A stretch of DNA of 35,184 nt from assembly GCA_043820105.1 (NCBI GenBank), contig JBDREC010000076.1:62001-97184 (forward strand), written 5' to 3'. Position 1 is the stretch's first letter. Every line of letters starts with the position of its first letter. Both the position numbers and the translations under genes were made by a program. This DNA comes from Pseudomonadota bacterium. Its GTDB lineage: Bacteria > Bdellovibrionota_F > JAHFAK01 > JBDREC01. The notes under the pieces are model-generated. The model searched no databases, was not told where the DNA came from, and saw only the letters and a program-made list of their open reading frames with translations. Shown here in pieces: positions 20,119 through 33,731 of the stretch.

Positions 20119-20993
20119 TGAATAGTGATTTTGATTTAAGAAAAGGAATATTCTTTTCCTTATTTTCTTGTTTCGGAATAGTTTGCATTTTTTTCCTTGG
20201 CAAGTTTGCTCTTGAAACAATAGCTGTTGAGGTTTTTCTTTTTTTTTGGTTTGGCTTAGCTTTTATTTATTTAAGTGCCTATAACCTTATTTTCATAAAA
20301 AAAAATCCATTTCTTATCTTATTAAAAAACAAGAAAACCTTAATTATTTATGTAATAGTTGAATTTATTGCATCTTATATATTTTTTTATATATTAAAAC
20401 ATTTAAATCCTTCATTTGTATCAACTTTAAATATATCTTTTACATTATTTCTATTTATACTCGGTATTATCATTTTAAAGGAAAGCTTTAATTCAATAGA
20501 AATTATTGGAGCTTTAATTGCATTAGCTGGCCTTATTGCTGTTTCATATTCTGGTGATTTTACCTTTACAATATATGCCATTATTTTTATACTTGGCAAC
20601 TTCATACAGGCCTTTAATACTATCTTTATAACAAAATTACTAAGAAAAGAAGATCCTGTTTTAATAAGCCAGCTTAGAACTTTATTTTTATCAATTTTTG
20701 CTTTATTCTTTTGCTTAATGAATGGTAATTTAGTTTTTCCATCTAATGATGGAATTTTATTTTTATCTTTAGGAAGCTTCTTTGGGCCTTGTGTAAATTT
20801 TCTTGGGTTTTATTTTGCAATAAAATATCTTGAGGTCTCAAAAGTTACGGTCATAAGAAACACAAACCCAATATTCGTTATAATTTTATCAATCTTATTC
20901 CTCAACTATTACCCTGAATTCAAGGAAATAATTGGGATGATCTGTTTATTAATGGGAACTGTAATATTAGTTCTTGGAAAGAGGAAAAAATGA
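20118..20993 (+). CDS. DMT/EamA family transporter
   Basis: About 10 TM segments in two repeats, with LKESF..IEIIGALIALAG; translationally coupled to dacB. Confidence 0.85.
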   Translation: MNSDFDLRKGIFFSLFSCFGIVCIFFLGKFALETIAVEVFLFFWFGLAFIYLSAYNLIFIKKNPFLILLKNKKTLIIYVIVEFIASYIFFYILKHLNPSFVSTLNISFTLFLFILGIIILKESFNSIEIIGALIALAGLIAVSYSGDFTFTIYAIIFILGNFIQAFNTIFITKLLRKEDPVLISQLRTLFLSIFALFFCLMNGNLVFPSNDGILFLSLGSFFGPCVNFLGFYFAIKYLEVSKVTVIRNTNPIFVIILSILFLNYYPEFKEIIGMICLLMGTVILVLGKRKK

Positions 20994-21534
20994 AATATAA
21001 AGGTATTATTTTTGATCTTGATGGAACCTTGGTTGATTCCATTGAAGACATTGCTGATTCCATGAATATTGTACTTGAAAATAATGATTTAAAACACACT
21101 CAGTAAAGGATTATAAATACTTTGTTGGTGATGGAATCAGAAATCTTGTAAAAAGATCACTTCCACAAAATAAAAGAGATGCTGCAATTATTGAAAAACT
21201 TCTTTTTGAGATAAAAAAGGAATATGCTCAAAAATGGAACAACAAAACAAAGCCTTATGAAGGAATTATTGACCTATTAAAAAAGCTAAAGTCAATGAAC
21301 ATAAAACTAGCTGTTCTTTCAAATAAACCAGACAAATATACAAAGCTTGTTTGTAATTATTTTTTTAAGGAAAATTATTTTGAAATTATAATGGGTGCAA
21401 GGGCTAACTTTCCTAAAAAACCTGAACCTGAGGCAGCATTATTTATCGCTAACAACTTGAACCTTGAACCAATGGAGATGTTATTTGTGGGTGATTCAAA
21501 TGTAGACATGAAAACTGGAATAAATATTTTTTAA
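20990..21534 (+). pseudogene. HAD-family phosphatase (phosphoglycolate phosphatase-like), frameshifted and 3'-truncated
   Basis: ATG 20990 gives MKYKGIIFDLDGTLVDS with a stop at 21104-21106. The -1 frame from TTTAAAAC (~21088-21095) continues KTHSVKDYKYFVGDG...LSNKP...KKPEP...VGDSNVD, then stops abruptly at 21534. Confidence 0.85.
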
Positions 21535-21749
21535 ATATATTTTCCTGCTTCGTTCAAACCATTGACATCTCCTGAACCGCCTAGATTCAATACTTTAAAC
21601 ATAGGAATTAGCATATAAAAGCTAAGCCCCTGAGAAAGGCCAGTAAATAAAGACATAAAAAATAATATTAAAATTCTATATTTTGTAAAAGACATAAAAT
21701 CTTTAACATAATTTTTCAAGATTATAAAACTTGATTGTAAACTAACCAA
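21531..21749 (-). pseudogene. N-terminal remnant of a peptide ABC exporter (lasso D-like)
   Basis: Overlaps the B2 stop. Encodes only a first TM region (ILILFFMSLFTGLSQGLSFYMLIPMF) resembling ABC exporter TM1, then stops after 72 aa. Sits where lasso clusters usually place the exporter. Confidence 0.6.
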
Positions 21750-22173
21750 AATATGCTACCTCAGAATATTCCGCATTATTTTTTCCGCCTGTTACTGGTG
21801 TTTCACCAACTTTTAGCCAGGCATGAGCAATCAGCGAATTATTTTTTTTATCTTTTCCCATACCAATGTATAAGGTGCTGTTAATTTTTCTGCGTTTTAG
21901 CATTATTTTAGCTGCTATAGCCTGGGGAAGACAATTACTTTTCACAGGCATATATTTAGAAACCTTATTGATGTAATAGGATATTTTATTAAGCATTTGA
22001 AAATCAACATTTTGAGCTTCATCATTTTGCTTATGCTTTCCAAGTATTATTTTTAAATATTTTGGGGATAAAATAATAATTGATATTCGGGCAAAGAATA
22101 AAAAAAAGGCCAGCTCTAACACAAAGAGTTTATTTTCACTTTTTAATCTTAAAAATTTTTTTATTCTTTTCAT
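21742..22173 (-). CDS. Lasso peptide B2 leader peptidase (transglutaminase-like)
   Basis: NCLPQAIA (catalytic Cys), LYIG and AHAWL (catalytic His), VTGG; adjacent to the PqqD-family gene. Confidence 0.92.
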   Translation of the reverse strand: MKRIKKFLRLKSENKLFVLELAFFLFFARISIIILSPKYLKIILGKHKQNDEAQNVDFQMLNKISYYINKVSKYMPVKSNCLPQAIAAKIMLKRRKINSTLYIGMGKDKKNNSLIAHAWLKVGETPVTGGKNNAEYSEVAYFG

Positions 22174-22176
22174 TTA

Positions 22177-22458
22177 TCACGCAATTTCCAAAAGACCCTT
22201 TTTACTAATATCTTTAACAAATAGTATTATATCATTAATGCAATCTTCCTTAAAAACATCAAACTCTTTTATTAATTTTAAAGCAAGTTCTTCAACAGAA
22301 AAGACTTTGTCTTCTAGAAGTTCCCAAATCCTTGTTCCAACTTCATTGAAATTGTACATATTACAATCTTCAACATTTAGCATTACAACTTCATCATCAA
22401 GATAGTTGTGCTCCTGATTTTTACTTCGCCTCACTTTTGTATTTTTTGTAATTTCCAT
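22177..22458 (-). CDS. Lasso peptide B1 / PqqD-family RiPP recognition element
   Basis: 93 aa; LDDEVVML...YNFNEVGTRIWELL...L.KEFDV..EDC..DI..F...GLL is a typical PqqD pattern. Confidence 0.92.
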   Translation of the reverse strand: MEITKNTKVRRSKNQEHNYLDDEVVMLNVEDCNMYNFNEVGTRIWELLEDKVFSVEELALKLIKEFDVFKEDCINDIILFVKDISKKGLLEIA

Positions 22459-22472
22459 TTTAATTGTTTCCT

Positions 22473-23333
22473 TTAAAAAACTAATTTATCATTTTTATCT
22501 AAATATCCAAAACGCTTCATCACGTCATAATGACAACTTATTAGCTTGTCAACATGATGATTTTTTAGTTTTTCTCTCCATGAACCAATTTTGCCCTTTC
22601 TAAAAAAGAACTTACATTTTTGGGGTTTTTCGTTAAAGCTTTTTTCTTCTTCCTGCTTCCTTAGTTTATCAAAACTTGTTTTTTCAATTGCCTGGGCAAT
22701 TTCTTTATCTGATTTATCCAGGTTTAGAAAATCGCATGCTTTTTTAAAAGTCCTTAAAGAATCAAGTTTCATATCTTCATATCTTAAAACACAAACTTTG
22801 TTAGGTGAATCAATCCAAGAAAGAACATGCCCACTCCAGGTAAGATGCCTTTGCAATAGCTGATTTGAAAAACTTTTCTTGTGCTTGCATAAAGCAAAGT
22901 CATTATTGCATAAATTATCAACAGTTTTATCAATAGATCCCGAATTATGATTTGCAAAAGAAACTGCTACATCAAGGGGATTTCTGACTAAATATATTAC
23001 TCCAAATGTAGCCTCAGGAGGAAAAAGCCACTCGCTCTCTTTGGTCTTTGTATAGGCATCGTGAACTTTCATATAGAATTTATCTTCTAAATTATCAGAA
23101 ATTTCTCTATAAACATCAGGTCTTAAGCTTTCAACTTCATCAGAAGATAAATCTGAAGATTCACATTCTACATGGTCTTCAAAAATTCCCCTTGCAGATG
23201 CAATAGGAGTTGATTGAAGATCATTTATGTCAGGTTCTGATTTTTTTTCATTTAAAATTGTACTTAAAAAGGTGCGGAACCATGTATTTCCTGACTTGGG
23301 ATAGGAAGCAAGCCATACAATATTATTTTTCAC
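22473..23333 (-). CDS. PAPS-dependent sulfotransferase
   Basis: LASYPKSGNTW (5'-PSB), RNPLDVAVS (3'-PB), LRYEDM and FFRKGKIGSW. Confidence 0.92.
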   Translation of the reverse strand: MKNNIVWLASYPKSGNTWFRTFLSTILNEKKSEPDINDLQSTPIASARGIFEDHVECESSDLSSDEVESLRPDVYREISDNLEDKFYMKVHDAYTKTKESEWLFPPEATFGVIYLVRNPLDVAVSFANHNSGSIDKTVDNLCNNDFALCKHKKSFSNQLLQRHLTWSGHVLSWIDSPNKVCVLRYEDMKLDSLRTFKKACDFLNLDKSDKEIAQAIEKTSFDKLRKQEEEKSFNEKPQKCKFFFRKGKIGSWREKLKNHHVDKLISCHYDVMKRFGYLDKNDKLVF

Positions 23334-24232
23334 TTTAAAATGTCCTTTTCAATGACATCAATGTAATGCTTAAAATCTTCAGTTCTTTGGGGTCTTGTAA
23401 TTGTGGTCATTGGAAGCTTGGCTAGCTCAACAGCAATTTTAAAAAAGGTGCTTTGCTTGTTTAAACCCTGAATATAGGATTTTCTATAGGAATTTGCTTT
23501 AATTATTTTCAGCCTTGCTTTTCCCAGAGTTTTTTCAATGGTCAAAATCTTTTCATCATTATGAGTTCTCACATGATACATTTTATAGATAGGGATTGCC
23601 TTGCCTTGATCGAGTTGTTCATAGCTGACATAATATTTATTAAGTGAATCCCTTACCTGAATAAAATCTCCTGTTTCTTGATTCAGTTTTATGGAATCTT
23701 CCCATAGCTTCATCATTGGATAGGAAGCAAAAAGATTTAATTTCTTATTTTCCATTTTTATTGGAGCAATATCATCTGTGATAACCCTGTATCCCCTCTT
23801 ATAAAAAGCATAGGCAAGAGTTGATTTTCCAACGCCTGAATTTCCAATGAACATTACAGCACCTTTGCCTGTTAGAATTGTAGATGCATGCATTGGAAGA
23901 TAATTTTTCATATAAAGAGTCGCGCCCATAACAGATCCAAGCAAGAATAAGCTAAGCTTATCTTCGTCTTTCATGAAATCTTGATCAATGATAATTTCTT
24001 TGCCATCTTTTACATAATATCTAAGGCCCAGCTTTTCATTGAAAAATAAAAACTCATTCTCTGCCATCTGACAGCACACATTTTTTTTCCGGATAGGTCT
24101 TGATAAATTATCTGGAGTTTTTGCGATTATAATCTTCAGATTGGGATTCGTAAATGCTTCTTTAACAGAATTTAGAGCTCTAATTTGAAACTGTGATTCT
24201 ATATTTAGATTAAAAATCTTGTAATTATACAT
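23330..24232 (-). CDS. HPr-kinase-like lasso peptide kinase (PadeK-type)
   Basis: MHAST, Walker A GNSGVGKST, ITDD and YPMMKLW; lies inside the lasso cluster. Confidence 0.88.
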   Translation of the reverse strand: MYNYKIFNLNIESQFQIRALNSVKEAFTNPNLKIIIAKTPDNLSRPIRKKNVCCQMAENEFLFFNEKLGLRYYVKDGKEIIIDQDFMKDEDKLSLFLLGSVMGATLYMKNYLPMHASTILTGKGAVMFIGNSGVGKSTLAYAFYKRGYRVITDDIAPIKMENKKLNLFASYPMMKLWEDSIKLNQETGDFIQVRDSLNKYYVSYEQLDQGKAIPIYKMYHVRTHNDEKILTIEKTLGKARLKIIKANSYRKSYIQGLNKQSTFFKIAVELAKLPMTTITRPQRTEDFKHYIDVIEKDILK

Positions 24233-24356
24233 CTATTAACTATTCGGCAAATTAATATTATCAAATAAATTTTTATAGTTTTATAGGGTTATAAATTAGT
24301 GCTATAATTGTCAAGAATCAGATAGGTTAAAATTGCTGTTATTTTATATGATTTGT

Positions 24357-24524
24357 TTAAGACGGACCCACAGTAGAAGTTGGTGTTGTTTCAGAAGTAC
24401 TAACAAAAGACTTTCCATTAACATCTGACACAAAAAGTGATTCACATTTAGGAGAAGCGTAAGGTTTAAGTTTCTTACAATATTGGGTTCTAATGTGATT
24501 TTCTTTTTTAGCTTCTTTTTCCAT
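24357..24524 (-). CDS. Lasso peptide precursor, 55 aa (not in ORF track)
   Basis: Manual translation: MEKEAKKENHIRTQYCKKLKPYASPKCESLFVSDVN|GKSFVSTSETTPTSTVGPS. AGGA upstream; YxxP leader motif; core Gly1 with Glu9 acceptor; C-terminal Ser. Confidence 0.88.
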   Translation of the reverse strand: MEKEAKKENHIRTQYCKKLKPYASPKCESLFVSDVNGKSFVSTSETTPTSTVGPS

Positions 24525-24591
24525 TATTCCATCCTATAAAAATTGCAAAAAGTATGTCTTTAAATCTAATTTTGAGGTTTTTGTCAAATGA

Positions 24592-25815
24592 TTAATGATT
24601 AATTAAACCCTCTAATAAATTAACATCATTAATCAATTCTATATTCCAATTATAATTAGCTTCAATTATAATTGGTCCTCTATCTGTCAATGCCAGATCA
24701 AAGGCAACAGATTTAAGATTTATTAGATTTTCATGTACTTTTATACAATAATCAACTGCTGTTGAAATTAATTTTCTAAGGTTTTGGCTTATAATAATAT
24801 CTTTATTATACTTTAGTTCTGAATTTATCCTCCACTTATTATCAACTTCAAAAGATTTCAAATCTAAAGGATAAATTTTATATAATTGCCTTTTATTTAT
24901 TTCGTGTTTTTTTGCAGCTGGTATTTCAAGTTGAAGATAAATAGCTTTGAATTCACCATCTTTAAATTCAAATGTTATTATTCTAAGTGTGGAAATTTCT
25001 TGTGATTCTGAAAAGTCATTGAGATCAGGATGATCAGAAAGGTAAGGTTCTATCATCATATTTTGTTTTTTAATTAATCCATTTAAATATCTTTCAATCC
25101 CAACATGTTCTTTTATAACATTACCGTTAATTGGATGAATTTCATATTGATTTGTCTTAGCAACATATAAAAGTTTAAATGCATCTTTACTTTGAGAAGA
25201 AACAAGCGGTTTACAAAAAACAGTTCTATTTCTAAAAAAGCTTGAAATTGATGACCTCTTTTTGACTAAGTCTAAGGTTTGAACTGAAGGAATATTGATA
25301 GATTTTAAGGCCTTTGCAAACTCATATTTATTTCCAATAAATTCTTTGGTTTCTTTCAGATCTTTCTTATTCTTATTAATAAAATCGTGAAAACAAGGAA
25401 GTTCTGATTTATAGAAATATTTATGTATTAAAGACTTATTTTCTTTAAGATAAAATTTATATCTATAATAGTTTATTGGAAGAATGTGATAGAAAAAATT
25501 GAGTTTTATAATTGTTATAGCTTGTGTTACGATTAATGTCCCATATTCCTTTTTTATAAATATCCCTTTTTTAAAAATTAATTTAAATAATATTTTCCAT
25601 AATTTATAAAAATACCAAATCAAAGCCTGAGCAGAAAACAAGATAAAATAACAAGGATTTAAAAGTTTTTTTATTTTCAAATAAAGCAGTTTTTTGTGTA
25701 AATTTTTGTGTTTATCATTCTTTGCCGAAAACAAATAAAGATTAAATAAAGGAAATGGTTTTGCTTCAAGATACAATCTCGATAATTGTGAAAGTAATTT
25801 TTGCCAAATATTCAT
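24592..25815 (-). CDS. ATP-grasp ligase resembling the sugar-transfer-associated (ST) ATP-grasp family
   Basis: NKYEF...IPSVQT, VFCKP, MIEPYLSDHPDL, STLRIIT and VAFDLALTDRGPIIIEAN. Confidence 0.78.
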   Translation of the reverse strand: MNIWQKLLSQLSRLYLEAKPFPLFNLYLFSAKNDKHKNLHKKLLYLKIKKLLNPCYFILFSAQALIWYFYKLWKILFKLIFKKGIFIKKEYGTLIVTQAITIIKLNFFYHILPINYYRYKFYLKENKSLIHKYFYKSELPCFHDFINKNKKDLKETKEFIGNKYEFAKALKSINIPSVQTLDLVKKRSSISSFFRNRTVFCKPLVSSQSKDAFKLLYVAKTNQYEIHPINGNVIKEHVGIERYLNGLIKKQNMMIEPYLSDHPDLNDFSESQEISTLRIITFEFKDGEFKAIYLQLEIPAAKKHEINKRQLYKIYPLDLKSFEVDNKWRINSELKYNKDIIISQNLRKLISTAVDYCIKVHENLINLKSVAFDLALTDRGPIIIEANYNWNIELINDVNLLEGLINH

Positions 25816-25821
25816 TTTATT

Positions 25822-27693
25822 TTACCAATTACTGCCATCTGGATAGAAAGTCTTAAACCACAAATCTAAATTATTAATGTTTGCAATTGATTTACTTATT
25901 GTAAATTGAGTAAGCCTATCCTTAGAATTTGATGAATTATTAATGTTTTCTTTTAATCGATCAATATCTAGAATTTGATAAAGGTCTTTATGCAAGTTTT
26001 TAGCAAGATCTAAATTAGTTTTAATATTTGTAGCACTTATTGGACTTCCCATCCATTTGCTTTTTTTCCAATTCACTCCTTTTGGAACAAGTTCGTCACA
26101 AACCAAGCGATGAAAATATCTGCTGATTTTATTAAATTTATGCTCTGTAGGAATTGACAAGAAAAAATCAATCAGTCTTACATCAAGTAATGGCCAGGCA
26201 TAATCAACGCCATATGAATGTGCCATTTGAGTACAATTGTTCATTCTTGTGGGAACAAAGGGCACAAATCTTTTTTCCAAGGTAAACTTATTTAAGTCAA
26301 CATATCCTGCGTCAAACCTGGCTTGATCAAAATACTTTTCTTTAAGCGAAAATCTCTGTATAATTTCATCTTTAATTGAAAAATATGGCCATCTTTTTTT
26401 CCAGGCTTTTAAAAATCTAGGACTATATTCTAAGTTTGATTTAAATTTAAATGAATAGAAATGCTTTAATAACCTAAGAAAACTTGTTAATATATTTCCA
26501 TTTAATCTGCTGTAAACAAAATTATATTTTTTGTCATAAAACATTTCTTTTATAGCAATATCACCATGAATTGAAGTTACAAATTCATCTCCCCCAAACC
26601 CCGACAAAAGAGTTCTAATGTTGTTCTTTTCACATAACATATAAAAGGGGTTATGATATGTTGAGTTTCCGTGTTCATATGGATATCCCATTGCATCCAA
26701 TGATCTATTTTTAATTTCAAGCGATAAATTATTTCTACCACAAAAAATGTAATTATTATTTATGTTATACTTCTGACTTGTTTGAAGAATAAACTTTGGT
26801 TCATCCTCAAGTTTTGCAAATCCAAAAGTGTATAAATTTTCAATAGATTGATTAAAATATTTAGCCGCTATTGAAGTAATAGTTGAAGAATCAATACCTC
26901 CGCTATTTTCTGACCCAACCTTATAATCGCTATCAATTCTTGTTTTAACAGCGTTAATTAATAGTTCTTTATATTCTTCAATATAATCATCTGTTTTTTG
27001 ATAATTAATTCTTTTATCAGGATCAAAAGAAAAATACTTTTCCTTTCTAAATTTTTCTTTATCCAAAATAATTTGATTAGCAGGCGGGATTTTAAAAATA
27101 CTATCATAAGCTGTATCTTCAAAGTCCATAGAAAGATGCAACATATACTTTGCTGCCCATTCTAAGCGTGGATTAATAGGGAAAAGATTGAATCTATGAA
27201 ACAAGGTTAAGGTTGAAGAAAAAACAAAAATCTTATCATCGCAATAATAGTAAAAGGGTTTTACTGCCATATGATCCACAAAGCAGTATAGCCTATTTTC
27301 TTTTTGACTGTATATTATAGCACTATAATCTCCATAAATATGCTTTGTTAAATCATCTTTCCACTTTAAATAACTTAAAAATGTAAGCTTTTGATCACTT
27401 GTTTTTTTAAGTTCTTCTCTTGAGATATCAAAAACGCAAGCTAGTTCATCTCGATTTGTAAGCCTTCCCCAAAACAAAACTACAAGTTGCTTTTGATGCT
27501 CAATTAATGGTGTATGCTCATATTTTGATTGTGGCGAATTGTACATCGTCATCTGAGTTAAAATCACAGCATCATCTATATAAGATCCGAGCTTATCAGC
27601 CTTTTTAAACTGATTTAAAGTTGATTCAATAATTTCCTGATAATCTCTGAGATCTATTGAACTTTTTTTTCTTTTAAAAATTCCGGCTATCAT
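25822..27693 (-). CDS. Lasso peptide cyclase (asparagine synthetase-like isopeptide synthase)
   Basis: SGGIDSS ATP-binding loop, LSGFGGDE and WPLLDVRLIDF. Lacks the N-terminal glutaminase Cys (starts MIAGIF). Clustered with B1, B2 and the precursor. Confidence 0.92.
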   Translation of the reverse strand: MIAGIFKRKKSSIDLRDYQEIIESTLNQFKKADKLGSYIDDAVILTQMTMYNSPQSKYEHTPLIEHQKQLVVLFWGRLTNRDELACVFDISREELKKTSDQKLTFLSYLKWKDDLTKHIYGDYSAIIYSQKENRLYCFVDHMAVKPFYYYCDDKIFVFSSTLTLFHRFNLFPINPRLEWAAKYMLHLSMDFEDTAYDSIFKIPPANQIILDKEKFRKEKYFSFDPDKRINYQKTDDYIEEYKELLINAVKTRIDSDYKVGSENSGGIDSSTITSIAAKYFNQSIENLYTFGFAKLEDEPKFILQTSQKYNINNNYIFCGRNNLSLEIKNRSLDAMGYPYEHGNSTYHNPFYMLCEKNNIRTLLSGFGGDEFVTSIHGDIAIKEMFYDKKYNFVYSRLNGNILTSFLRLLKHFYSFKFKSNLEYSPRFLKAWKKRWPYFSIKDEIIQRFSLKEKYFDQARFDAGYVDLNKFTLEKRFVPFVPTRMNNCTQMAHSYGVDYAWPLLDVRLIDFFLSIPTEHKFNKISRYFHRLVCDELVPKGVNWKKSKWMGSPISATNIKTNLDLAKNLHKDLYQILDIDRLKENINNSSNSKDRLTQFTISKSIANINNLDLWFKTFYPDGSNW

Positions 27694-27951: not shown

Positions 27952-28240
27952 CTATGCCTGCTTGTGTAAACTTTTAAAAAAACCTACAATATGCTTACAA
28001 TATTTATTATGCTTTTTCATAAAGTCAGTCAGATTTAAGTTTAACTTTATATAATCAATGTTTTCAGGTTTATTAATTATCAAATCTCTTAAAAAAAGTG
28101 TTTCTGATAACTTTTCAGCAAAGGTTTTTGACATCATTTTCAATTCAGCAAGCCTTTTATATCTATCTTCATATGTCTTAAGGTGGGACAAGTGGATTCC
28201 ATTTTCATATATGATGTGAATGTTAATATCAATTTCCCAT
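27952..28240 (-). pseudogene. 3' remnant of an unrelated gene fused to the truncated IS110
   Basis: An open frame WEIDINIHIIYENGIHLSHLKTYEDRY...HKQA* begins at the point where transposase similarity ends; no convincing start or RBS. Confidence 0.4.
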
Positions 28241-28967
28241 GTGCTTTGTTCTTAAATCTAAATGGATCAAAAATAAATGCTGAAAATGTTGCAGCTGTTA
28301 CTAATCCCACTCCCTTTACTTTTAAAAACTCTTTTATCTCTTTAAACTTTTCAGATCGTTTTCTCATTTCATTATAAACTTCTATTTTCTGATTTTCTAA
28401 AATTTCAAGTTGTCTCCAATAGAGAGTTGCAGATTTTATTGATATTTGAGTTTCCTTAATTTTAGACAACCATTTTTCACTATTCTTTTCTGAATATATC
28501 GTTTGTCCTGAACATGGAATAGCTCTGTTTTTAAACACTCGTTTCAATCTGTTTTTGCTTCTGGTAATATCTTTTACTATTTTGTTATACAAATTTACTA
28601 ATTCTCTAAACTCTTGTCTCTCTTTTGAAATTGGATGAAATACTTCTTTAAGTTCTCCCATTCTTAATAATCTTGCCAAATTCTCTGAATCAGTTTTATC
28701 ATTACTGTTTCCTTTGTAGATACTAGGATTTTCCCCTGGATCACAGATCAAAGCACGATCAACTTTATTATAAGTTATATTCAACATCCATTCAGCCAAA
28801 GGTCCCTCTTCAAATGTTAATTGTTTTTTACCTCTTATACCTTTCAAATATTCAATAACAAGTTTTTCACTTGTCGGTATAATTTTTCTATCAACTATTT
28901 TTCCCTCTGAATTAATTGTACAAAATGTAATTGACTTGCCATGCAAATCTGCGCCTATACTTTTCAT
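28140..28967 (-). pseudogene. IS110-family (DEDD) transposase, C-terminally truncated
   Basis: SIGADLHGKS, FEEGP, NDKTDSENLARLL and VKGVGLVTA...DPFRF are present. The expected following YxGL...SG segment is missing. Confidence 0.85.
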
Positions 28968-29127: not shown

Positions 29128-30567
29128 ATGTTAAAGTATAGTCTAAAATTTTCATTTTTCATATTTATATTAAATACTTTCTTTGTTTCAGCACAAGAAA
29201 CATCAAGCTATAGCTATGAATCATTTATAAAAGATGTCTTGGAAACAAACCAAGATATTGAGGCTCAAAATATCATAAAAAGAATTGATGAAGCAAATAT
29301 TTTGCAAGCAAAGGCAATAAATGATTTTACTTTAGGAGCTGATGCTAATTATATTTATTATGAAGACACAGATAATGGTGTTTCTTTTAGTCCAACGAAA
29401 ATCGATGGTTTTTCTGGAGGCATTTCCTTAAGTCATACTGTTGAACAAACAGGTACAATAGCAAGCATTGAATACGGTTTTGACAAACAGAACCTGGACT
29501 TTCCAGCGAACTCCTTTGTTCAGACTCCATTTTCAATTAATCTTTATCAGCCTGCTCTTTCAATTAGCATAGTTCAGCCACTTTTAAATAATTTAATGGG
29601 GGCTCAATATAAGCTTCCAAAAACACTAGCAAGATTCCAAAAGGATATTAATGAGGTCCAAACAAAGGAAAGCATTGAATCAATTCTTTTGTCAGCATCA
29701 AAAAGTTATTTAAGTTGGGCTCTTTTGAACAAGCAAATTGAAATTACCAAAAACCTAATTGGAAAAATCAAAAATCAAGAAACGCTAGTTCATAAACAAG
29801 TAAAAGACGGAATGGCAGAAAAAGAAGAAATATATAGAATAGATTCTTTATTAAAGGAAAAAGAGGCAACCCTAGAAAGTCTGCAGGCTAGCTATGAAGC
29901 ATTACAAATTGCCCTTGCTTCTTTCTTATATAACAAGGAAATTTCAAAATCACTTAAGCCTGAGCTACCAAGTATCGCAAAGACATTAGCTGAAAATGAT
30001 TTTATTAAAACAAAATCCAGAATATCTAAGCTTTGTAAACTCTCTGTTTCAATGCAGGAGGATATTGTTAAAACTTATAAAAACAATAAACTTCCAGATC
30101 TATCTTTAGTTCTAAACTATAAAAGACATGGATCAGAAGATGCATTTGATGATGCCTCATGGTCTGGCTTTGCAAATGATGATTTTGTTGCAGGTCTAAG
30201 TTTTTCGTTTCCTGTTCTTAATAATTCAAGAAAGGGAAGCTTTTTAAAGGAAATGTATAGGCTTGAAAAGTTAAGAATTGAAAACAAACAAAAACTTCAC
30301 CAAATAACCCAAAGCTATTTGAGCAATAAAGCTAAATATTCTATTTATGAAAATGTAATTTCAAAGCAAGAAGCCTCTATAAATGATGCACAACTTAAGC
30401 TTTCTTTATTAAATAAAAAATACAGGCAAGGCAGAATAACACTTTTTGAGATTTTAAATGAAGAAGTTAACATGTTTATTTCACAAATGACCTTAGAGAA
30501 ATATAAGGTTGATAGCTTGAGTATTGTTTTGGAGATGAGAGAACTTGTAGATGAGTTGTACAATTAA
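29128..30567 (+). CDS. TolC-family outer membrane efflux protein
   Basis: Signal peptide; SIVQPLL, LPDLSL and GLSFSFPV beta/helix repeats; YRQGRITLFE; directly upstream of the RND gene. Confidence 0.85.
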   Translation: MLKYSLKFSFFIFILNTFFVSAQETSSYSYESFIKDVLETNQDIEAQNIIKRIDEANILQAKAINDFTLGADANYIYYEDTDNGVSFSPTKIDGFSGGISLSHTVEQTGTIASIEYGFDKQNLDFPANSFVQTPFSINLYQPALSISIVQPLLNNLMGAQYKLPKTLARFQKDINEVQTKESIESILLSASKSYLSWALLNKQIEITKNLIGKIKNQETLVHKQVKDGMAEKEEIYRIDSLLKEKEATLESLQASYEALQIALASFLYNKEISKSLKPELPSIAKTLAENDFIKTKSRISKLCKLSVSMQEDIVKTYKNNKLPDLSLVLNYKRHGSEDAFDDASWSGFANDDFVAGLSFSFPVLNNSRKGSFLKEMYRLEKLRIENKQKLHQITQSYLSNKAKYSIYENVISKQEASINDAQLKLSLLNKKYRQGRITLFEILNEEVNMFISQMTLEKYKVDSLSIVLEMRELVDELYN

Positions 30568-30597
30568 TTTTGAATTTTGAATCTTGAATTTTGAATT
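30566..30597. repeat. Heptamer tandem repeat (AATTTTG) x ~4.5
   Basis: AATTTTG AATTTTG AATCTTG AATTTTG AATT between the TolC and RND genes. Confidence 0.8.
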
Positions 30598-30620
30598 AAT
30601 TTCACATTAAGGAGACTAAA

Positions 30621-33600
30621 TTGATAGCAATAGTAAAGTTTTTCGTTGAAAGAAAATTACTCGCTAATTTTTTGATGTTTGTTTTAGCATTTTTAGGAGT
30701 ATTTTCTATTTATATATTAAAAAAGCAGACTCTCCCAAATTCTAAAGTTGATATTGCTTTAATCACTACTGTTTATCCTGGAGCTGCGCCACAAGATGTT
30801 GAGCAAAATGTTACTCGTCTTATTGAAGATGAATTAAAAGGTGTTTCAGGACTTAAAAAATACATGAGTTTTTCCATGGAAAACACTTCAGTTATTCAGG
30901 TTGAAATTGATCCTGACTCAGGAGATACTTCAAAAATTGTTGAAGATATCCAAAAGGCAGTTGATAGAGTGACTGATCTTCCAAAGGAAATACTTTATAA
31001 ACCAGAGGTCTATGAAATCGATTCAGCTAATTTTCCAATAATTAATGTCGGTATCTCTGGAGAAGCCAGCTATGAAATTAAAAGAGAGCTAGCAGAAGCC
31101 TTAGAAAAAAAGATCAAACTCATAAATGGTATAAAAGAAATTGAAAAAGTTGGCTTTAGAGATAAGGAAATTCATATTGATGTAAACCCAAAACAGCTTC
31201 ATTCAAAATATATAGCCCTAAATGACATTGCCTTTGCATTAGCAAATAGAAACATAAGATCAACCGGAGGATCCCTTGAGTCTTTTACAAGTCAAAAAGA
31301 TATTGTAACAATTGCTGAGTTTGACTCTATTGATGATATACAAAATGTTATAATAAGGGCTAATTATACTGGCAAAAACATTCGAATCAAAGATGTTGCA
31401 AATGTAAAATATGGCTATGAAAAAGAAACCAGAAGATCACGATTCAATGGAAAGTCTGGGATTTCTTTGATTGTTGTCAAAAAAGCTGCTGCTGACCAAA
31501 TTACAGTTACAGAAAATATTAAAAAATTACTTGAAAAAGAAAACAAGCACTTGCCCGCAGGAATTACCTTAACATCTGTAAATGACACCTCATTCATTGT
31601 TAAAAACAGGCTAGCTGTTATTACACAAAACGCTTTCATGGGATTTGTTCTTGTGCTTTTAGCCTTATTTGTTTTCCTAAATCTCAGGGTCGCCTTTTGG
31701 ACTTCAATTGCAATTCCAGTTGCCGTCTTTTTTACCTTTATATTGATGCATACCTTTGGAATTGATATAACTGTAATTTCACTAGCTGCAATTATAATGG
31801 TAATGGGCATGCTTGTTGATGATGCTATTATTGTCTCTGAAAACATTTACAGACATAAGCTAATGGGCAAATCACCAATGCAAGCATCGCTTGAGGGAAC
31901 ACAGGAAGTTATGTGGCCTGTGATTTGTACAGTCGCCACTTCGATAGTAGCATTTATTCCTTTAATTTTCCTCAAAGGAATGATGGGAAAATTTATTTTT
32001 GCAATTCCAGTTGTAGTTGCAGCTTCATTATTTGGAAGCTTAGTGGACAGCTTCACAATACTCCCAAGCCATATAGCCACAGTTAAAGTTGATAAAACAC
32101 AATCAGGAATTAGAGAAAAAGCTTTTGATAATTTAAAAAATTTATATGCTAAAGTTTTAACATTTTGCTTAAAGTTTAGATATTTGGTTGTTGGACTTTT
32201 TATAATACTTCTCATCTTTTCAATGGGAATGGCACGAAAGCATTTAGGATTCAGGCTCTTTCCTGAAGACGCAGCTCAAGCATTTTTTATAAAAATAAAA
32301 ACCGCTCCAGAATCAACCCACAATGCAACTGAAGAAGTTATCAAGGTTTATGAAAAAGCTATTTTAAATTTAAGTAAAGAAGAATTAGATTCCATAGCAG
32401 TTGAGGTCGGAAATTCAAGTGAGTGGGGACAAGCTCAAGGTGTTGGCTTTGCAAATAAAGCAATCATTTCAGTTTACCTTACTCCTTCAAATGAAAGAAA
32501 AAGACTTGGAAGAGAAATAATGGAAAGCTTAAGAAAAGAAATCATTCCACCAAAGATTGTTCAGAAAGTTACATGGGAACTGGTTTCTGGCGGACCTCCA
32601 GCTGGAAAGCCTGTTGAAATTAATGTAATTTGTAATAAAAAAGAGAAAAAGGAAAAAATTACAAAAGAAATTTATGAATTTATTCAAACCATCCCAGGAG
32701 TTTATGACATAGAAAGAAATGATGATGACAAGTTTGAACACATTAGACTCAACTTAAATTATGAAAAACTAAGTACATTAGCCCTAACTGTGGCTGATGT
32801 TGCTTCAACAATTAGAACAGCCTATGATGGAATTGATGCAACGGAAATTATCAAAGACAATGAGGCAATTGATATTAACCTTCGCTTTGCAAAAGAATTT
32901 AGAGAAGACATGACTCACTTAAAATCACTACGGGTAAGAAATGCAATAGGCAAACTAATTCCAATAAGCAAATTTACTTCAATTGATAAAGAAATGGATT
33001 CAAGATTATTATACCATTATAATGGAGACGCTGCTGTTGTAATATCTTCAGAACTTGACCAAAAGAAAACCAACAATATGAAAGCTTCAAAAATGATTCT
33101 CGCAAAATTTTCACCAGTAATTGACAAAGATCCTGATATTCAAATTATTATTGGAGGAGAAGCAGCTGAATCAACGAAAACGATTCATGATCTAATAAAA
33201 ACCTTTTTAACCGCAATTTTTGCAATTTTTACTATTTTGCTTATTTTATTTAATTCTCTAAGCCAACCTCTCTTGGTTATGGCGGCAATTCCATTTGGAA
33301 TAATTGGTGTTATCTTCACCTTAATCTTCCACGGCCACAATGCATCCTTTATGGCTGGAATTGGAACAATTGGCCTGTGCGGTGTTATTGTAAATGACTC
33401 CCTTGTCATGGTTTCCTTTATAAATAACTTAATGAAAAAATATGATTATGGAAAGTTAAAATCCGTCAGAGCTATAATTGTTGAAGGGGCAAAATTAAGA
33501 TTAAGACCAATTATCCTTACAACCTTAACAACAGTAGCTGGACTTTTCCCAACAGCCTATGGTCTTGGAGGAAGCGATGTTTATATTCAAAGACTTGTTT

Positions 33601-33731
33601 TACCAATCGCCTGGGGCCTTGTTTTTGCAACCTTACTTACTTTGATTTTGATTCCGTGTTTTTATAATATTGATCGGGATGTAAAAAGAATTTTTGTTAG
33701 AATTTTTCTAAAAAAACAAAGACAAATTTAA
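30621..33731 (+). CDS. RND-family (AcrB-like) efflux transporter
   Basis: 1036 aa; YPGAAPQDVE, GMLVDDAIIVSENI (TM4 DD), GGPPAGKP, GVIVNDSLV and RLRPIILTTLTT; TTG start after AGGAG. Confidence 0.95.
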   Translation: MIAIVKFFVERKLLANFLMFVLAFLGVFSIYILKKQTLPNSKVDIALITTVYPGAAPQDVEQNVTRLIEDELKGVSGLKKYMSFSMENTSVIQVEIDPDSGDTSKIVEDIQKAVDRVTDLPKEILYKPEVYEIDSANFPIINVGISGEASYEIKRELAEALEKKIKLINGIKEIEKVGFRDKEIHIDVNPKQLHSKYIALNDIAFALANRNIRSTGGSLESFTSQKDIVTIAEFDSIDDIQNVIIRANYTGKNIRIKDVANVKYGYEKETRRSRFNGKSGISLIVVKKAAADQITVTENIKKLLEKENKHLPAGITLTSVNDTSFIVKNRLAVITQNAFMGFVLVLLALFVFLNLRVAFWTSIAIPVAVFFTFILMHTFGIDITVISLAAIIMVMGMLVDDAIIVSENIYRHKLMGKSPMQASLEGTQEVMWPVICTVATSIVAFIPLIFLKGMMGKFIFAIPVVVAASLFGSLVDSFTILPSHIATVKVDKTQSGIREKAFDNLKNLYAKVLTFCLKFRYLVVGLFIILLIFSMGMARKHLGFRLFPEDAAQAFFIKIKTAPESTHNATEEVIKVYEKAILNLSKEELDSIAVEVGNSSEWGQAQGVGFANKAIISVYLTPSNERKRLGREIMESLRKEIIPPKIVQKVTWELVSGGPPAGKPVEINVICNKKEKKEKITKEIYEFIQTIPGVYDIERNDDDKFEHIRLNLNYEKLSTLALTVADVASTIRTAYDGIDATEIIKDNEAIDINLRFAKEFREDMTHLKSLRVRNAIGKLIPISKFTSIDKEMDSRLLYHYNGDAAVVISSELDQKKTNNMKASKMILAKFSPVIDKDPDIQIIIGGEAAESTKTIHDLIKTFLTAIFAIFTILLILFNSLSQPLLVMAAIPFGIIGVIFTLIFHGHNASFMAGIGTIGLCGVIVNDSLVMVSFINNLMKKYDYGKLKSVRAIIVEGAKLRLRPIILTTLTTVAGLFPTAYGLGGSDVYIQRLVLPIAWGLVFATLLTLILIPCFYNIDRDVKRIFVRIFLKKQRQI

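What the first reader, a model, noticed from the sequence alone, without database searches (positions are those of the whole stretch)
21531..27693. Lasso peptide cluster with a triple tailoring set: kinase, sulfotransferase and an ATP-grasp ligase
Seen: minus-strand order cyclase - ATP-grasp - precursor - HPr-kinase-like - sulfotransferase - B1 - B2 - ABC remnant, with tight or overlapping junctions. Established: paeninodin-type clusters use an HPr-kinase-like enzyme to phosphorylate the C-terminal Ser, and some also encode sulfotransferases. Inference: an ATP-grasp enzyme only 6 bp downstream of the cyclase and directly before the precursor is not part of the canonical lasso set as I know it. 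It suggests a multiply modified lasso peptide with new chemistry.
Basis: partly seen in the sequence, partly recalled or inferred. Interest (0 to 1): 0.9.

Follow-up and report, generated by a model that had tools for sequence, protein, structure and literature searches.

The report
Lasso peptide cluster with conserved ATP-grasp ligase
This is a real lasso-peptide gene cluster that carries, besides a kinase and a sulfotransferase, an ATP-grasp ligase that recurs right after the cyclase in related clusters and tracks with a conserved lysine in the peptide, pointing to an undescribed lasso modification.

Summary
On the minus strand, 21531-27693 encodes cyclase, ATP-grasp, precursor, HPr-kinase-like, sulfotransferase, B1, B2 and a 72-aa ABC stub, with tight junctions.

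The ATP-grasp belongs to a small divergent PF14397 clade. I found 11 distinct loci of it (Victivallales MAGs, metagenomes and this genome). Ten have lasso genes alongside. In 8 of the 9 with upstream sequence it directly follows the cyclase, although the other genes are shuffled.

It is an accessory gene: three homologous clusters lack it.

Predicted cores in ATP-grasp-positive clusters have Lys at position 2. This is clear in 5 precursors and register-dependent or weak in 3. Both readable negative cores have Gly there and no Lys.

The ATP/Mg residues are conserved. The fold is nearest Ddl, LysX/ArgX and RimK.

Best reading: a peptide-tailoring amide ligase, probably acting at Lys2. The chemistry is untested.

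Full-text searches found no description of such a cluster. The window copy has lost its exporter.

Verdict: a new variant of a known kind.

The parts
25822..27693 (-). Lasso cyclase (C), asparagine-synthetase-like
   Evidence: PF00733 89.7 bits, PF13537 65 bits, NF033535 262.9 bits, which is below the curated cut-off of 525. It is the only such gene in the genome. It is 44-58% identical to cyclases of the related clusters.
24592..25815 (-). Divergent PF14397 ATP-grasp ligase. Residues 1-~172 are predicted all-helical; residues ~136-407 form the ATP-grasp core.
   Evidence: PF14397 41.8 bits against a cut-off of 31.4. AF2 model with pLDDT 76.7. Fold matches Ddl/VanA at Z 14.7, ArgX/LysX at 13.8/13.1 and RimK at 13.0. 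K163, K202, R278, E385 and N387 are invariant and D373 nearly invariant in 36 sequences. The gene starts 6 bp after the cyclase stop.
24357..24524 (-). Precursor peptide (A), 55 aa. The leader has a PYxxP motif. The predicted core is GKSFVSTSETTPTSTVGPS, with a Gly1-Glu9 ring, Lys2 and a C-terminal Ser.
   Evidence: ORF. AGGA about 10 nt before the ATG. Aligns with the precursors of related clusters. The cleavage site is inferred, not shown.
23330..24232 (-). HPr-kinase-like lasso kinase (K)
   Evidence: PF07475 31.1 bits (cut-off 33.3) and TIGR04352 34.6 bits, both over the P-loop region. It is 36-64% identical to the kinases in related lasso loci.
22473..23333 (-). PAPS-type sulfotransferase (ST)
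   Evidence: PF00685 97.5 bits. 52-73% identical homologs sit in 7 related loci. The genome has an APS kinase.
22177..22458 (-). B1, PqqD-like leader-recognition protein
   Evidence: PF05402 59 bits; NF033536 61.9 bits, below the cut-off of 80.
21742..22173 (-). B2, transglutaminase-like leader peptidase
   Evidence: NF033537 83.9 bits (cut-off 33); PF13471 79.2 bits.
21531..21749 (-). N-terminal stub (72 aa) of the cluster's ABC exporter; the rest has been deleted
   Evidence: 46% identical to residues 1-72 of the intact 583-aa exporter on contig C29, and 34-36% identical to the L006 exporter. There is no further ABC similarity in the window.
28140..28967 (-). IS110-family transposase fragment flanking the cluster upstream
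   Evidence: PF01548 43.7 bits, N-terminal domain only.
20990..21534 (+). Broken HAD-phosphatase gene that abuts the ABC stub and marks the downstream deletion edge
   Evidence: The frame-1 translation runs into stops after 38 codons, and a second piece (21295-21534) lies in another frame.

Best explanation
The region is a split-B (paeninodin-type) lasso peptide cluster. B1 binds the leader, B2 cleaves it, and the cyclase joins Gly1 to Glu9. [quoted passage not shown] All of these steps are inferred from the families.

The extra gene is a catalytically intact, divergent PF14397 ATP-grasp ligase. It is a conserved accessory member of this lasso subfamily. It most likely tailors the peptide itself by ATP-dependent amide formation involving the conserved Lys at core position 2. 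It could either acylate or aminoacylate the Lys side chain, or join that side chain to the only free carboxylate of the core, which is the C-terminus.

Shown here: the gene set, the conserved linkage, the conserved catalytic residues and the Lys2 pattern. Inferred: that the peptide is the substrate, and the site and type of bond.
For: Linkage:
- The ATP-grasp clade is rare. There are 8 close homologs (P0002-P0009) in a 5.8-billion-protein word-indexed search, and it occurs in 4 of 251 genomes of the Victivallales order.
- Of the 11 distinct loci, 10 have lasso genes beside it.
- The cyclase lies immediately upstream in 8 of the 9 loci with upstream sequence (window, L003, L004, L006, L009, L028, L029, L030; not L005). 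The positions of A, K, ST, B1 and B2 differ between these loci.
- In L009 it sits between C and B2 with a 0-bp gap from the cyclase. In the window it sits between C and A.

Catalytic competence:
- K163, K202, R278, E385 and N387 are invariant, and Q256, E297 and D373 nearly so, across 36 sequences down to 18% identity.
- The ATP-grasp fold is recovered for residues 136-407.

Substrate clue:
- In ATP-grasp-positive clusters the otherwise hypervariable core keeps Lys at position 2. Five precursors are clear: window, L003, L004, L005 and L028. One depends on the chosen register (L009). Two in L029 have weak leaders.
- The two readable ATP-grasp-negative relatives (L046, L048) have Gly at that aligned column and no Lys anywhere in the core.
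- In the window, L003 and L005 cores the only carboxylates are the ring Glu and the C-terminus.

Fold neighbours:
- The top matches ligate amino acids or peptide or protein termini: Ddl/VanA Z 14.7, ArgX/LysX 13.8/13.1, RimK 13.0. PylC, listed at Z 10.5, is recalled to acylate a Lys side chain.
Against: - No product, mass shift or binding has been observed.
- The Lys2 contrast rests on only 2 negative precursors and about 4 independent positive lineages. Three of the eight positive precursors are uncertain: the L009 register, and the L029 ORFs, which have an atypical leader and start inside the 3' end of a reverse-transcriptase gene.
- The L028 precursor-like ORF runs on to 101 aa without a C-terminal Ser.
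- Lys2 could instead serve B2 or the cyclase, or the bioactivity of the peptide.
- Canonical PF14397 members lie in polysaccharide clusters. That favours a sugar-directed role.
- The deep nodes of the cyclase tree are unresolved, with support of 49-77.
- The window's ATP-grasp lacks the C-terminal PAxxWL tail of its closest relatives.
- The window's cluster has no exporter, so this copy may not be producing anything.
- The context of the wider ~400-aa family is unknown. It has 150 representatives at E<=1e-30 and is mainly in Pseudomonadota by the Atlas listing.
Confidence: 0.5

Rival explanations
1. The ATP-grasp works on a sugar or phospho-sugar appendage, not on the peptide backbone. In pseudomycoidin-type clusters a nucleotidyltransferase adds hexose to the phospho-Ser. 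Here the ligase would amidate or acylate that glycan, in keeping with the family's name, 'sugar-transfer associated'.
For: Canonical PF14397 paralogs sit with a GT25 glycosyltransferase and a polysaccharide pyruvyl transferase in L031. A PF14907 nucleotidyltransferase is present in the ATP-grasp-positive clusters L006, L009, L028 and L029. Phosphoglycosylation of a lasso C-terminal Ser is described in passages of PMC8498205.
Against: The window cluster has no nucleotidyltransferase; the genome's 4 PF14907 genes lie on other contigs. L046 has the nucleotidyltransferase but no ATP-grasp. This reading does not explain the Lys2 pattern. The lasso-linked clade is very divergent from canonical PF14397, scoring 41.8 bits against 110-179 bits.
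Confidence: 0.15
2. The ATP-grasp is a RimK/LysX-like C-terminal ligase. It activates the C-terminal carboxylate of the lasso tail and adds an amino acid or amine to it. On this reading Lys2 is unrelated.
For: ArgX/LysX and RimK are among the top fold matches, at Z 13.0-13.8. The C-terminus is the only free carboxylate in three of the cores. The C-terminal Ser is invariant.
Against: The C-terminal Ser is equally present in the ATP-grasp-negative clusters and goes with the kinase. The Z-scores of Ddl, LysX, RimK and PsnB lie within about 3 units of each other, so the ranking is weak.
Confidence: 0.15
3. The ATP-grasp is not a tailoring enzyme. It could be an immunity, regulatory or precursor-independent function that travels with the cyclase. 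Alternatively, the window's cluster is a decaying, non-producing copy.
For: The exporter is truncated, and an IS110 fragment and a broken HAD gene flank the cluster. Several related loci are degraded: L006 has a split ATP-grasp and a truncated cyclase, and L049 holds only fragments. The gene is dispensable in three homologous clusters.
Against: All seven biosynthetic ORFs in the window are intact with coupled junctions. A paralogous intact exporter exists on contig C29. The conserved position directly after the cyclase and inside the operon is typical of biosynthetic genes. The catalytic residues are under clear constraint.
Confidence: 0.12

Closest known systems
Paeninodin-type phosphorylated lasso peptide clusters (Paenibacillus dendritiformis; passages of review PMC8498205)
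   Same: Split B1/B2, an Asn-synthetase-like cyclase, an HPr-kinase homolog, a precursor ending in Ser, a sulfotransferase in some clusters and an ABC exporter.
   Different: No ATP-grasp is described there. Here the ATP-grasp follows the cyclase, the core carries a conserved Lys2, the hosts are a 4-species GTDB phylum and Victivallales rather than Firmicutes or Proteobacteria, and the exporter is truncated in the window.
Pseudomycoidin cluster (Bacillus pseudomycoides; kinase plus nucleotidyltransferase; PMC8498205 passages)
   Same: The related loci L006, L009, L028, L029 and L046 combine the kinase with a PF14907 nucleotidyltransferase.
   Different: The window has no nucleotidyltransferase in the cluster. 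An ATP-grasp and a sulfotransferase are not part of the pseudomycoidin set as described there.
Graspetides (microviridin, plesiocin; ligases MdnB/C and PsnB)
   Same: A RiPP precursor next to an ATP-grasp ligase, and the same fold (PsnB Z 11.8, MdnC Z 9.5).
   Different: The ligase belongs to a different family (PF14397) and has a helical N-terminal domain. The core has no spare Asp or Glu for side-chain crosslinks in three of the clusters. The cluster's class-defining enzymes are those of a lasso peptide.
Engineered lasso-graspetide chimeras (PMC13003496; abstract and passages)
   Same: One peptide processed by both lasso enzymes and an ATP-grasp ligase.
   Different: Those are man-made fusions with two leaders. 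The authors call the combination not seen in nature. Here the pairing is natural and conserved.
RimK, LysX/ArgX and Ddl amino-acid and C-terminal ligases
   Same: They are the best fold matches over residues 136-407, and the Mg/ATP residues are conserved.
   Different: There is no detectable sequence relative in the PDB. The N-terminal domain is helical rather than the usual alpha/beta pre-ATP-grasp domain. The substrate is unknown.

Membership tests
Lasso peptide biosynthetic cluster (split-B type) | Asparagine-synthetase-like macrolactam cyclase | tested here: met
   PF00733 89.7 bits (cut-off 21). NF033535 is the best NCBIfam hit at 262.9 bits but lies below its cut-off of 525.
Lasso peptide biosynthetic cluster (split-B type) | PqqD-like B1 and transglutaminase-like B2 | tested here: met
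   PF05402 59 bits; NF033537 83.9 bits over a cut-off of 33.
Lasso peptide biosynthetic cluster (split-B type) | Precursor with a YxxP leader motif, a small N-terminal core residue and Asp/Glu at core position 7-9 | tested here: met
   PYASP lies 15 residues before Gly1, and Glu is at position 9. The motif definition is recalled, and the cleavage site is inferred.
Lasso peptide biosynthetic cluster (split-B type) | Threaded lariat product | not testable with these tools
   Needs expression, MS/MS and NMR or a protease/heat stability assay.
Lasso peptide biosynthetic cluster (split-B type) | Dedicated ABC exporter | tested here: not met
   Only a 72-aa N-terminal stub remains in the window. An intact paralog lies on contig C29. 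The exporter is common in such clusters but not class-defining.
Paeninodin-type phosphorylated lasso peptides | HPr-kinase homolog plus a C-terminal Ser in the core | tested here: met
   PF07475 31.1 bits, just under the cut-off of 33.3, over the P-loop region. The precursor ends in Ser, as do 9 of the 10 precursor candidates aligned in A2; the exception is L028.
Graspetides | Core rich in Asp/Glu and Ser/Thr/Lys partners for side-chain to side-chain ester or amide links | tested here: not met
   The window, L003 and L005 cores contain a single acidic residue, the presumed ring Glu.
Graspetides | Ligase of the MdnB/MdnC/PsnB type | tested here: inconclusive
   Same fold, but these rank lower (Z 9.5-11.8) than Ddl, LysX and RimK (Z 13-14.7). 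Pfam assigns the protein to PF14397 only.
PF14397 ATPgrasp_ST | Score above the Pfam gathering threshold | tested here: met
   41.8 bits against 31.4, with the best stretch at residues 352-395 only. Full-length Atlas look-alikes carry PF14397.
PF14397 ATPgrasp_ST | Polysaccharide or sugar-transfer gene neighbourhood | tested here: not met
   The window and the 10 related loci have lasso genes as neighbours. The sugar context is seen only for distant members in L031.
ATP-grasp superfamily | ATP-binding lysines and the Asp/Glu/Asn Mg2+ site | tested here: met
   K163, K202, E385 and N387 are invariant and D373 nearly invariant in 36 sequences. The assignment of roles to these residues is by analogy, from recall.

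The most novel reading that the evidence does not exclude
The ATP-grasp joins the side-chain amine of ring residue Lys2 to the C-terminal carboxylate of the threaded tail. That would give a covalently locked bicyclic lasso: an amide-tethered counterpart of the disulfide-tethered class III lasso peptides, and a natural lasso-graspetide hybrid. Phosphate and sulfate would then further decorate it. The predicted signature for the window peptide is a second loss of water, to 1832.88 Da, before any phospho or sulfo additions.
Probability: 0.15. Interest if true: 0.85.

Novelty: new variant of a known kind. Interest (0 to 1): 0.68.

Why it matters
Few lasso tailoring reactions have been described. 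Those named in the passages I read are methylation, phosphorylation, phosphoglycosylation, citrullination, hydroxylation, epimerisation and acetylation; glycosylation appears in the abstract listing of PMC11912497. An ATP-dependent ligase would add amide-bond chemistry to that list. It could be a second, ring-to-tail crosslink, which the field has so far only engineered (PMC13003496). The conserved cyclase/ATP-grasp gene pair and the Lys2 signature give a simple rule for mining further examples and a clear, cheap experiment. The enzyme could also serve as a tool for site-specific peptide ligation on lasso scaffolds.

Tried and rejected
- Complex prediction of the ATP-grasp (alignment A1) with the precursor (alignment A3): no verdict, score 0.00 against a mark of 0.32. 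This is evidence neither for nor against binding.
- Fused cyclase/ATP-grasp or other long forms: none found among proteins of 714-2035 aa. This is weak evidence.
- PDB search by sequence profile: no ATP-grasp relative. The best hit is a chance bromodomain match at E 0.0034.
- Plasmid collection, tblastn with the window protein and with the distant member P0040: no match. So the gene context of the wider, mostly Pseudomonadota family could not be read.
- Diversity-generating retroelement idea for the G336 loci: rejected. The two L029 copies are identical through the leader and then unrelated, with indels, rather than differing at adenines. The reverse transcriptase scores best as group-II-intron type. 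The PF05635 gene is a small insertion flanked by 49-nt repeats.
- Promoter and terminator scan: counts equal the shuffled expectation, 41 against 40.9 and 2 against 2.8. Nothing can be concluded from it.
- Wider search of the Victivallales phylum with the cyclase: 3 of 401 genomes matched, none of them new.
- The window's own GTDB phylum: 4 genomes, and only the window's has the ATP-grasp.
- Cyclase tree: the deep nodes are unresolved. The two negative clusters form one group in only 2% of bootstrap trees, but this is not a robust count of gains and losses.
The paeninodin and RODEO papers are not held. The search for 'lasso' plus 'Victivall' returned only LASSO-regression papers.

Full report
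**Observation**

- cyclase, 25822-27693
- ATP-grasp, 24592-25815
- 55-aa precursor, 24357-24524
- HPr-kinase-like, 23330-24232
- sulfotransferase, 22473-23333
- B1, 22177-22458
- B2, 21742-22173
- 72-aa ABC stub, 21531-21749

The junctions are a 6-bp gap, 67 bp, 124 bp, a 4-bp overlap, 14 bp, 3 bp and an 8-bp overlap.

Pfam and NCBIfam agree with each name. Three scores fall below curated cut-offs: the cyclase against NF033535 (262.9 against 525), B1 against NF033536 (61.9 against 80), and the kinase against PF07475 (31.1 against 33.3). The general family models for the cyclase, B1, B2 and the sulfotransferase are all well above threshold.

The stub matches the first 72 residues of full-length lasso-cluster ABC exporters, and nothing ABC-like follows it. 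It abuts a broken HAD gene. An IS110 fragment lies upstream of the cyclase.

**Is the ATP-grasp part of the cluster?**

The protein has only 8 close homologs (P0002-P0009, 32-45% identity) in the word-indexed search of 5.8 billion proteins. Scans of genome and metagenome contigs with their alignment, followed by searches of GTDB species genomes, gave 11 distinct loci once near-identical copies were collapsed. These are the window, L003 (=L007=L008), L004, L005, L006, L009 (=L010=L011=L012), L013, L014, L028, L029 and L030, plus a degraded fragment, L049.

I mapped the window's cluster proteins onto them by tblastn:
- Lasso genes lie beside the ATP-grasp in 10 of the 11 loci. The eleventh, L013, has only 28 bp upstream and MreB downstream.
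- The cyclase is immediately upstream in 8 of the 9 loci that have upstream sequence. The exception is L005, where B2 precedes the ATP-grasp and no cyclase is present.

The rest of the gene order varies. It is A-C-ATPgrasp in L003, K-ST-B1-C-ATPgrasp-B2 in L009, and C-ATPgrasp-A-K-ST-B1-B2 in the window. So the cyclase/ATP-grasp pair is the conserved unit.

**The gene is an accessory**

The reverse search with the cyclase found matches in 6 of 251 genomes of the Victivallales order. Three homologous clusters lack the ATP-grasp:
- L046 has a cyclase 50% identical to the window's, followed by K, B1, B2, a nucleotidyltransferase and an ABC exporter. It also has no sulfotransferase.
- L048 has K, ST, a B1 fragment and a cyclase 40% identical.
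- L047 has 280 bp after the cyclase that is closed in all frames, and no ATP-grasp was found in that genome at E<=1e-30.

On a cyclase tree, L047 groups with the positive L003 and L004 at 100/99 support. The deeper nodes are unresolved.

**Distribution**

The window's GTDB phylum holds only 4 species genomes, and only this one has the gene. The relatives that carry organism names (L003-L006) are Victivallales MAGs. This points to horizontal transfer, which I did not test further.

**What kind of enzyme it is**

An AlphaFold2 model (pLDDT 76.7) predicts an all-helical N-terminal region up to about residue 172, followed by an ATP-grasp core.

Foldseek, and an exhaustive VIA-align search, match only residues 136-407. 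The order is Ddl/VanA (Z 14.7), ArgX/LysX (13.8 and 13.1), RimK (13.0), PsnB (11.8), PylC (10.5) and MdnC (9.5). These values are too close together to fix a subfamily. There is no sequence relative in the PDB.

In 36 sequences down to 18% identity, K163, K202, R278, E385 and N387 are invariant and Q256, E297 and D373 nearly so. Several N-domain residues (W67, H143) are also invariant. The enzyme therefore looks active, and its N-domain looks functional.

An exhaustive HMM search shows a wider family: 150 representatives at E<=1e-30, 712 at E<=1e-10 and 2199 at E<=1e-3. The Atlas lists full-length look-alikes mainly from Pseudomonadota. I could not read their gene context, since the plasmid searches found nothing.

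Distant PF14397 paralogs in L031 sit with a glycosyltransferase and a polysaccharide pyruvyl transferase. That is the family's canonical context.

**The substrate clue**

Candidate precursors were found by ORF listing in the intergenic gaps and then aligned. They share a (Y/W)xxP leader motif 15-18 residues before the predicted core. Nine of the ten aligned end in Ser; the exception is L028.

Within the otherwise hypervariable cores of ATP-grasp-positive clusters, four positions recur: the first residue (Gly or Ser), Lys at position 2, the ring Glu at position 8 or 9, and the final Ser.
- Lys2 is clear in the window, L003, L004, L005 and L028.
- In L009 it holds only if the core starts at Asn.
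- The two L029 ORFs fit the pattern, but they have an atypical leader and start inside the 3' end of a reverse-transcriptase gene, so I count them as weak.
- The two readable negative clusters (L046, L048) have Gly at the aligned column and no Lys anywhere in the core.
- In the window, L003 and L005 cores the only carboxylates are the ring Glu and the C-terminus.

**Mechanism**

B1/B2/C-mediated lasso formation, kinase action on the C-terminal Ser and sulfation are all inferred from the families and from the review passages. The genome has an APS kinase, and PAPS-pathway genes flank the G336 clusters.

For the ATP-grasp I commit to a peptide-tailoring amide ligase that acts at Lys2, with confidence 0.5.

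Rival readings:
- Action on a phospho-glycan appendage (0.15).
- RimK/LysX-like C-terminal extension (0.15).
- A non-tailoring role, or a decaying copy of the cluster (0.12).

The boldest reading not excluded is a Lys2-to-C-terminus lactam that tethers the tail to the ring (probability 0.15).

**Comparison with what is known, and novelty**

The cluster meets the tests for a split-B, kinase-type lasso cluster, apart from the exporter. It does not meet the graspetide test of an acid-rich core.

Full-text searches found no paper that places an ATP-grasp in a lasso cluster:
- 'lasso peptide' plus 'ATP-grasp': 47 papers, 25 listed.
- 'lasso peptide' plus 'PF14397': 0 papers.
- 'sugar-transfer associated ATP-grasp': 0 papers.
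- Searches on sulfotransferase, kinase, nucleotidyltransferase and tailoring terms.

In the passages I read in PMC8498205, PMC11912497 and PMC7533575, the term refers to microviridin or graspetide enzymes, or does not occur at all.

The abstract of PMC13003496 (2026) calls combined lasso and graspetide modifications 'not seen in nature'.

The limits on this claim are that the paeninodin and RODEO papers were not held and supplements were closed.

**Verdict**

This is a real, conserved and apparently undescribed accessory enzyme in a known class of cluster. I rate it a new variant of a known kind, with interest 0.68. The chemistry is unproven, and the window's copy lacks its exporter.

Noticed in passing
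Same genome, contig C29: L063 6845-11507: A second, partial lasso-type locus. It holds a kinase (64% identical to the window's), a 550-aa B12-binding radical SAM protein (best NCBIfam hit is the RiPP C-methyltransferase TIGR03975, 125 bits, below cut-off), a B2 (66-68% identical) and an intact 583-aa ABC exporter. There is no cyclase, B1 or obvious precursor. It could supply the exporter that the window's cluster lacks.
   Followed up: partly
L028 11741-13061 and L029 10677-12053 (genome G336): In both clusters a group-II-intron-like reverse transcriptase gene ends inside the start of the precursor-like ORF. L029 has a 613-bp tandem duplication that gives two ORFs with identical leaders and unrelated cores. 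The L028 ORF runs on to 101 aa. The pattern is not DGR-like.
   Followed up: partly
L028 5710-6321 and L029 4920-5840: An APS kinase gene and a CysD-like gene (PF01507) flank the two G336 lasso clusters. This fits a local PAPS supply for the sulfotransferase.
   Followed up: no
window 20990-21534 (+): A HAD-family phosphatase gene is broken into at least two frames. It converges on the truncated ABC stub, which suggests a deletion at this edge of the cluster.
   Followed up: partly
window 27952-28967 (-): An IS110-family transposase is present only as an N-terminal-domain ORF of 275 aa, with a separate overlapping 79-aa ORF. It is probably a decayed insertion sequence bordering the cluster.
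   Followed up: no
window 24592-24650 (-), C-terminus of the ATP-grasp: The window's ATP-grasp ends about 15-20 residues earlier than its closest relatives and lacks their conserved PAxxWL tail. Many distant family members also lack it.
   Followed up: no
L004, L005, L006, L049 (one Victivallales MAG, G004): One genome carries three copies of the ATP-grasp plus a fragment, in lasso loci at various stages of decay and beside transposases. These include a split ATP-grasp with a truncated cyclase, a cyclase with a stop, and a locus with no cyclase.
   Followed up: partly
window 29128-33731 (+): An outer-membrane efflux protein (PF02321) is followed by a 1036-aa ORF just beyond the IS fragment. 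It may be an RND-type efflux system; the large ORF was not scanned.
   Followed up: no
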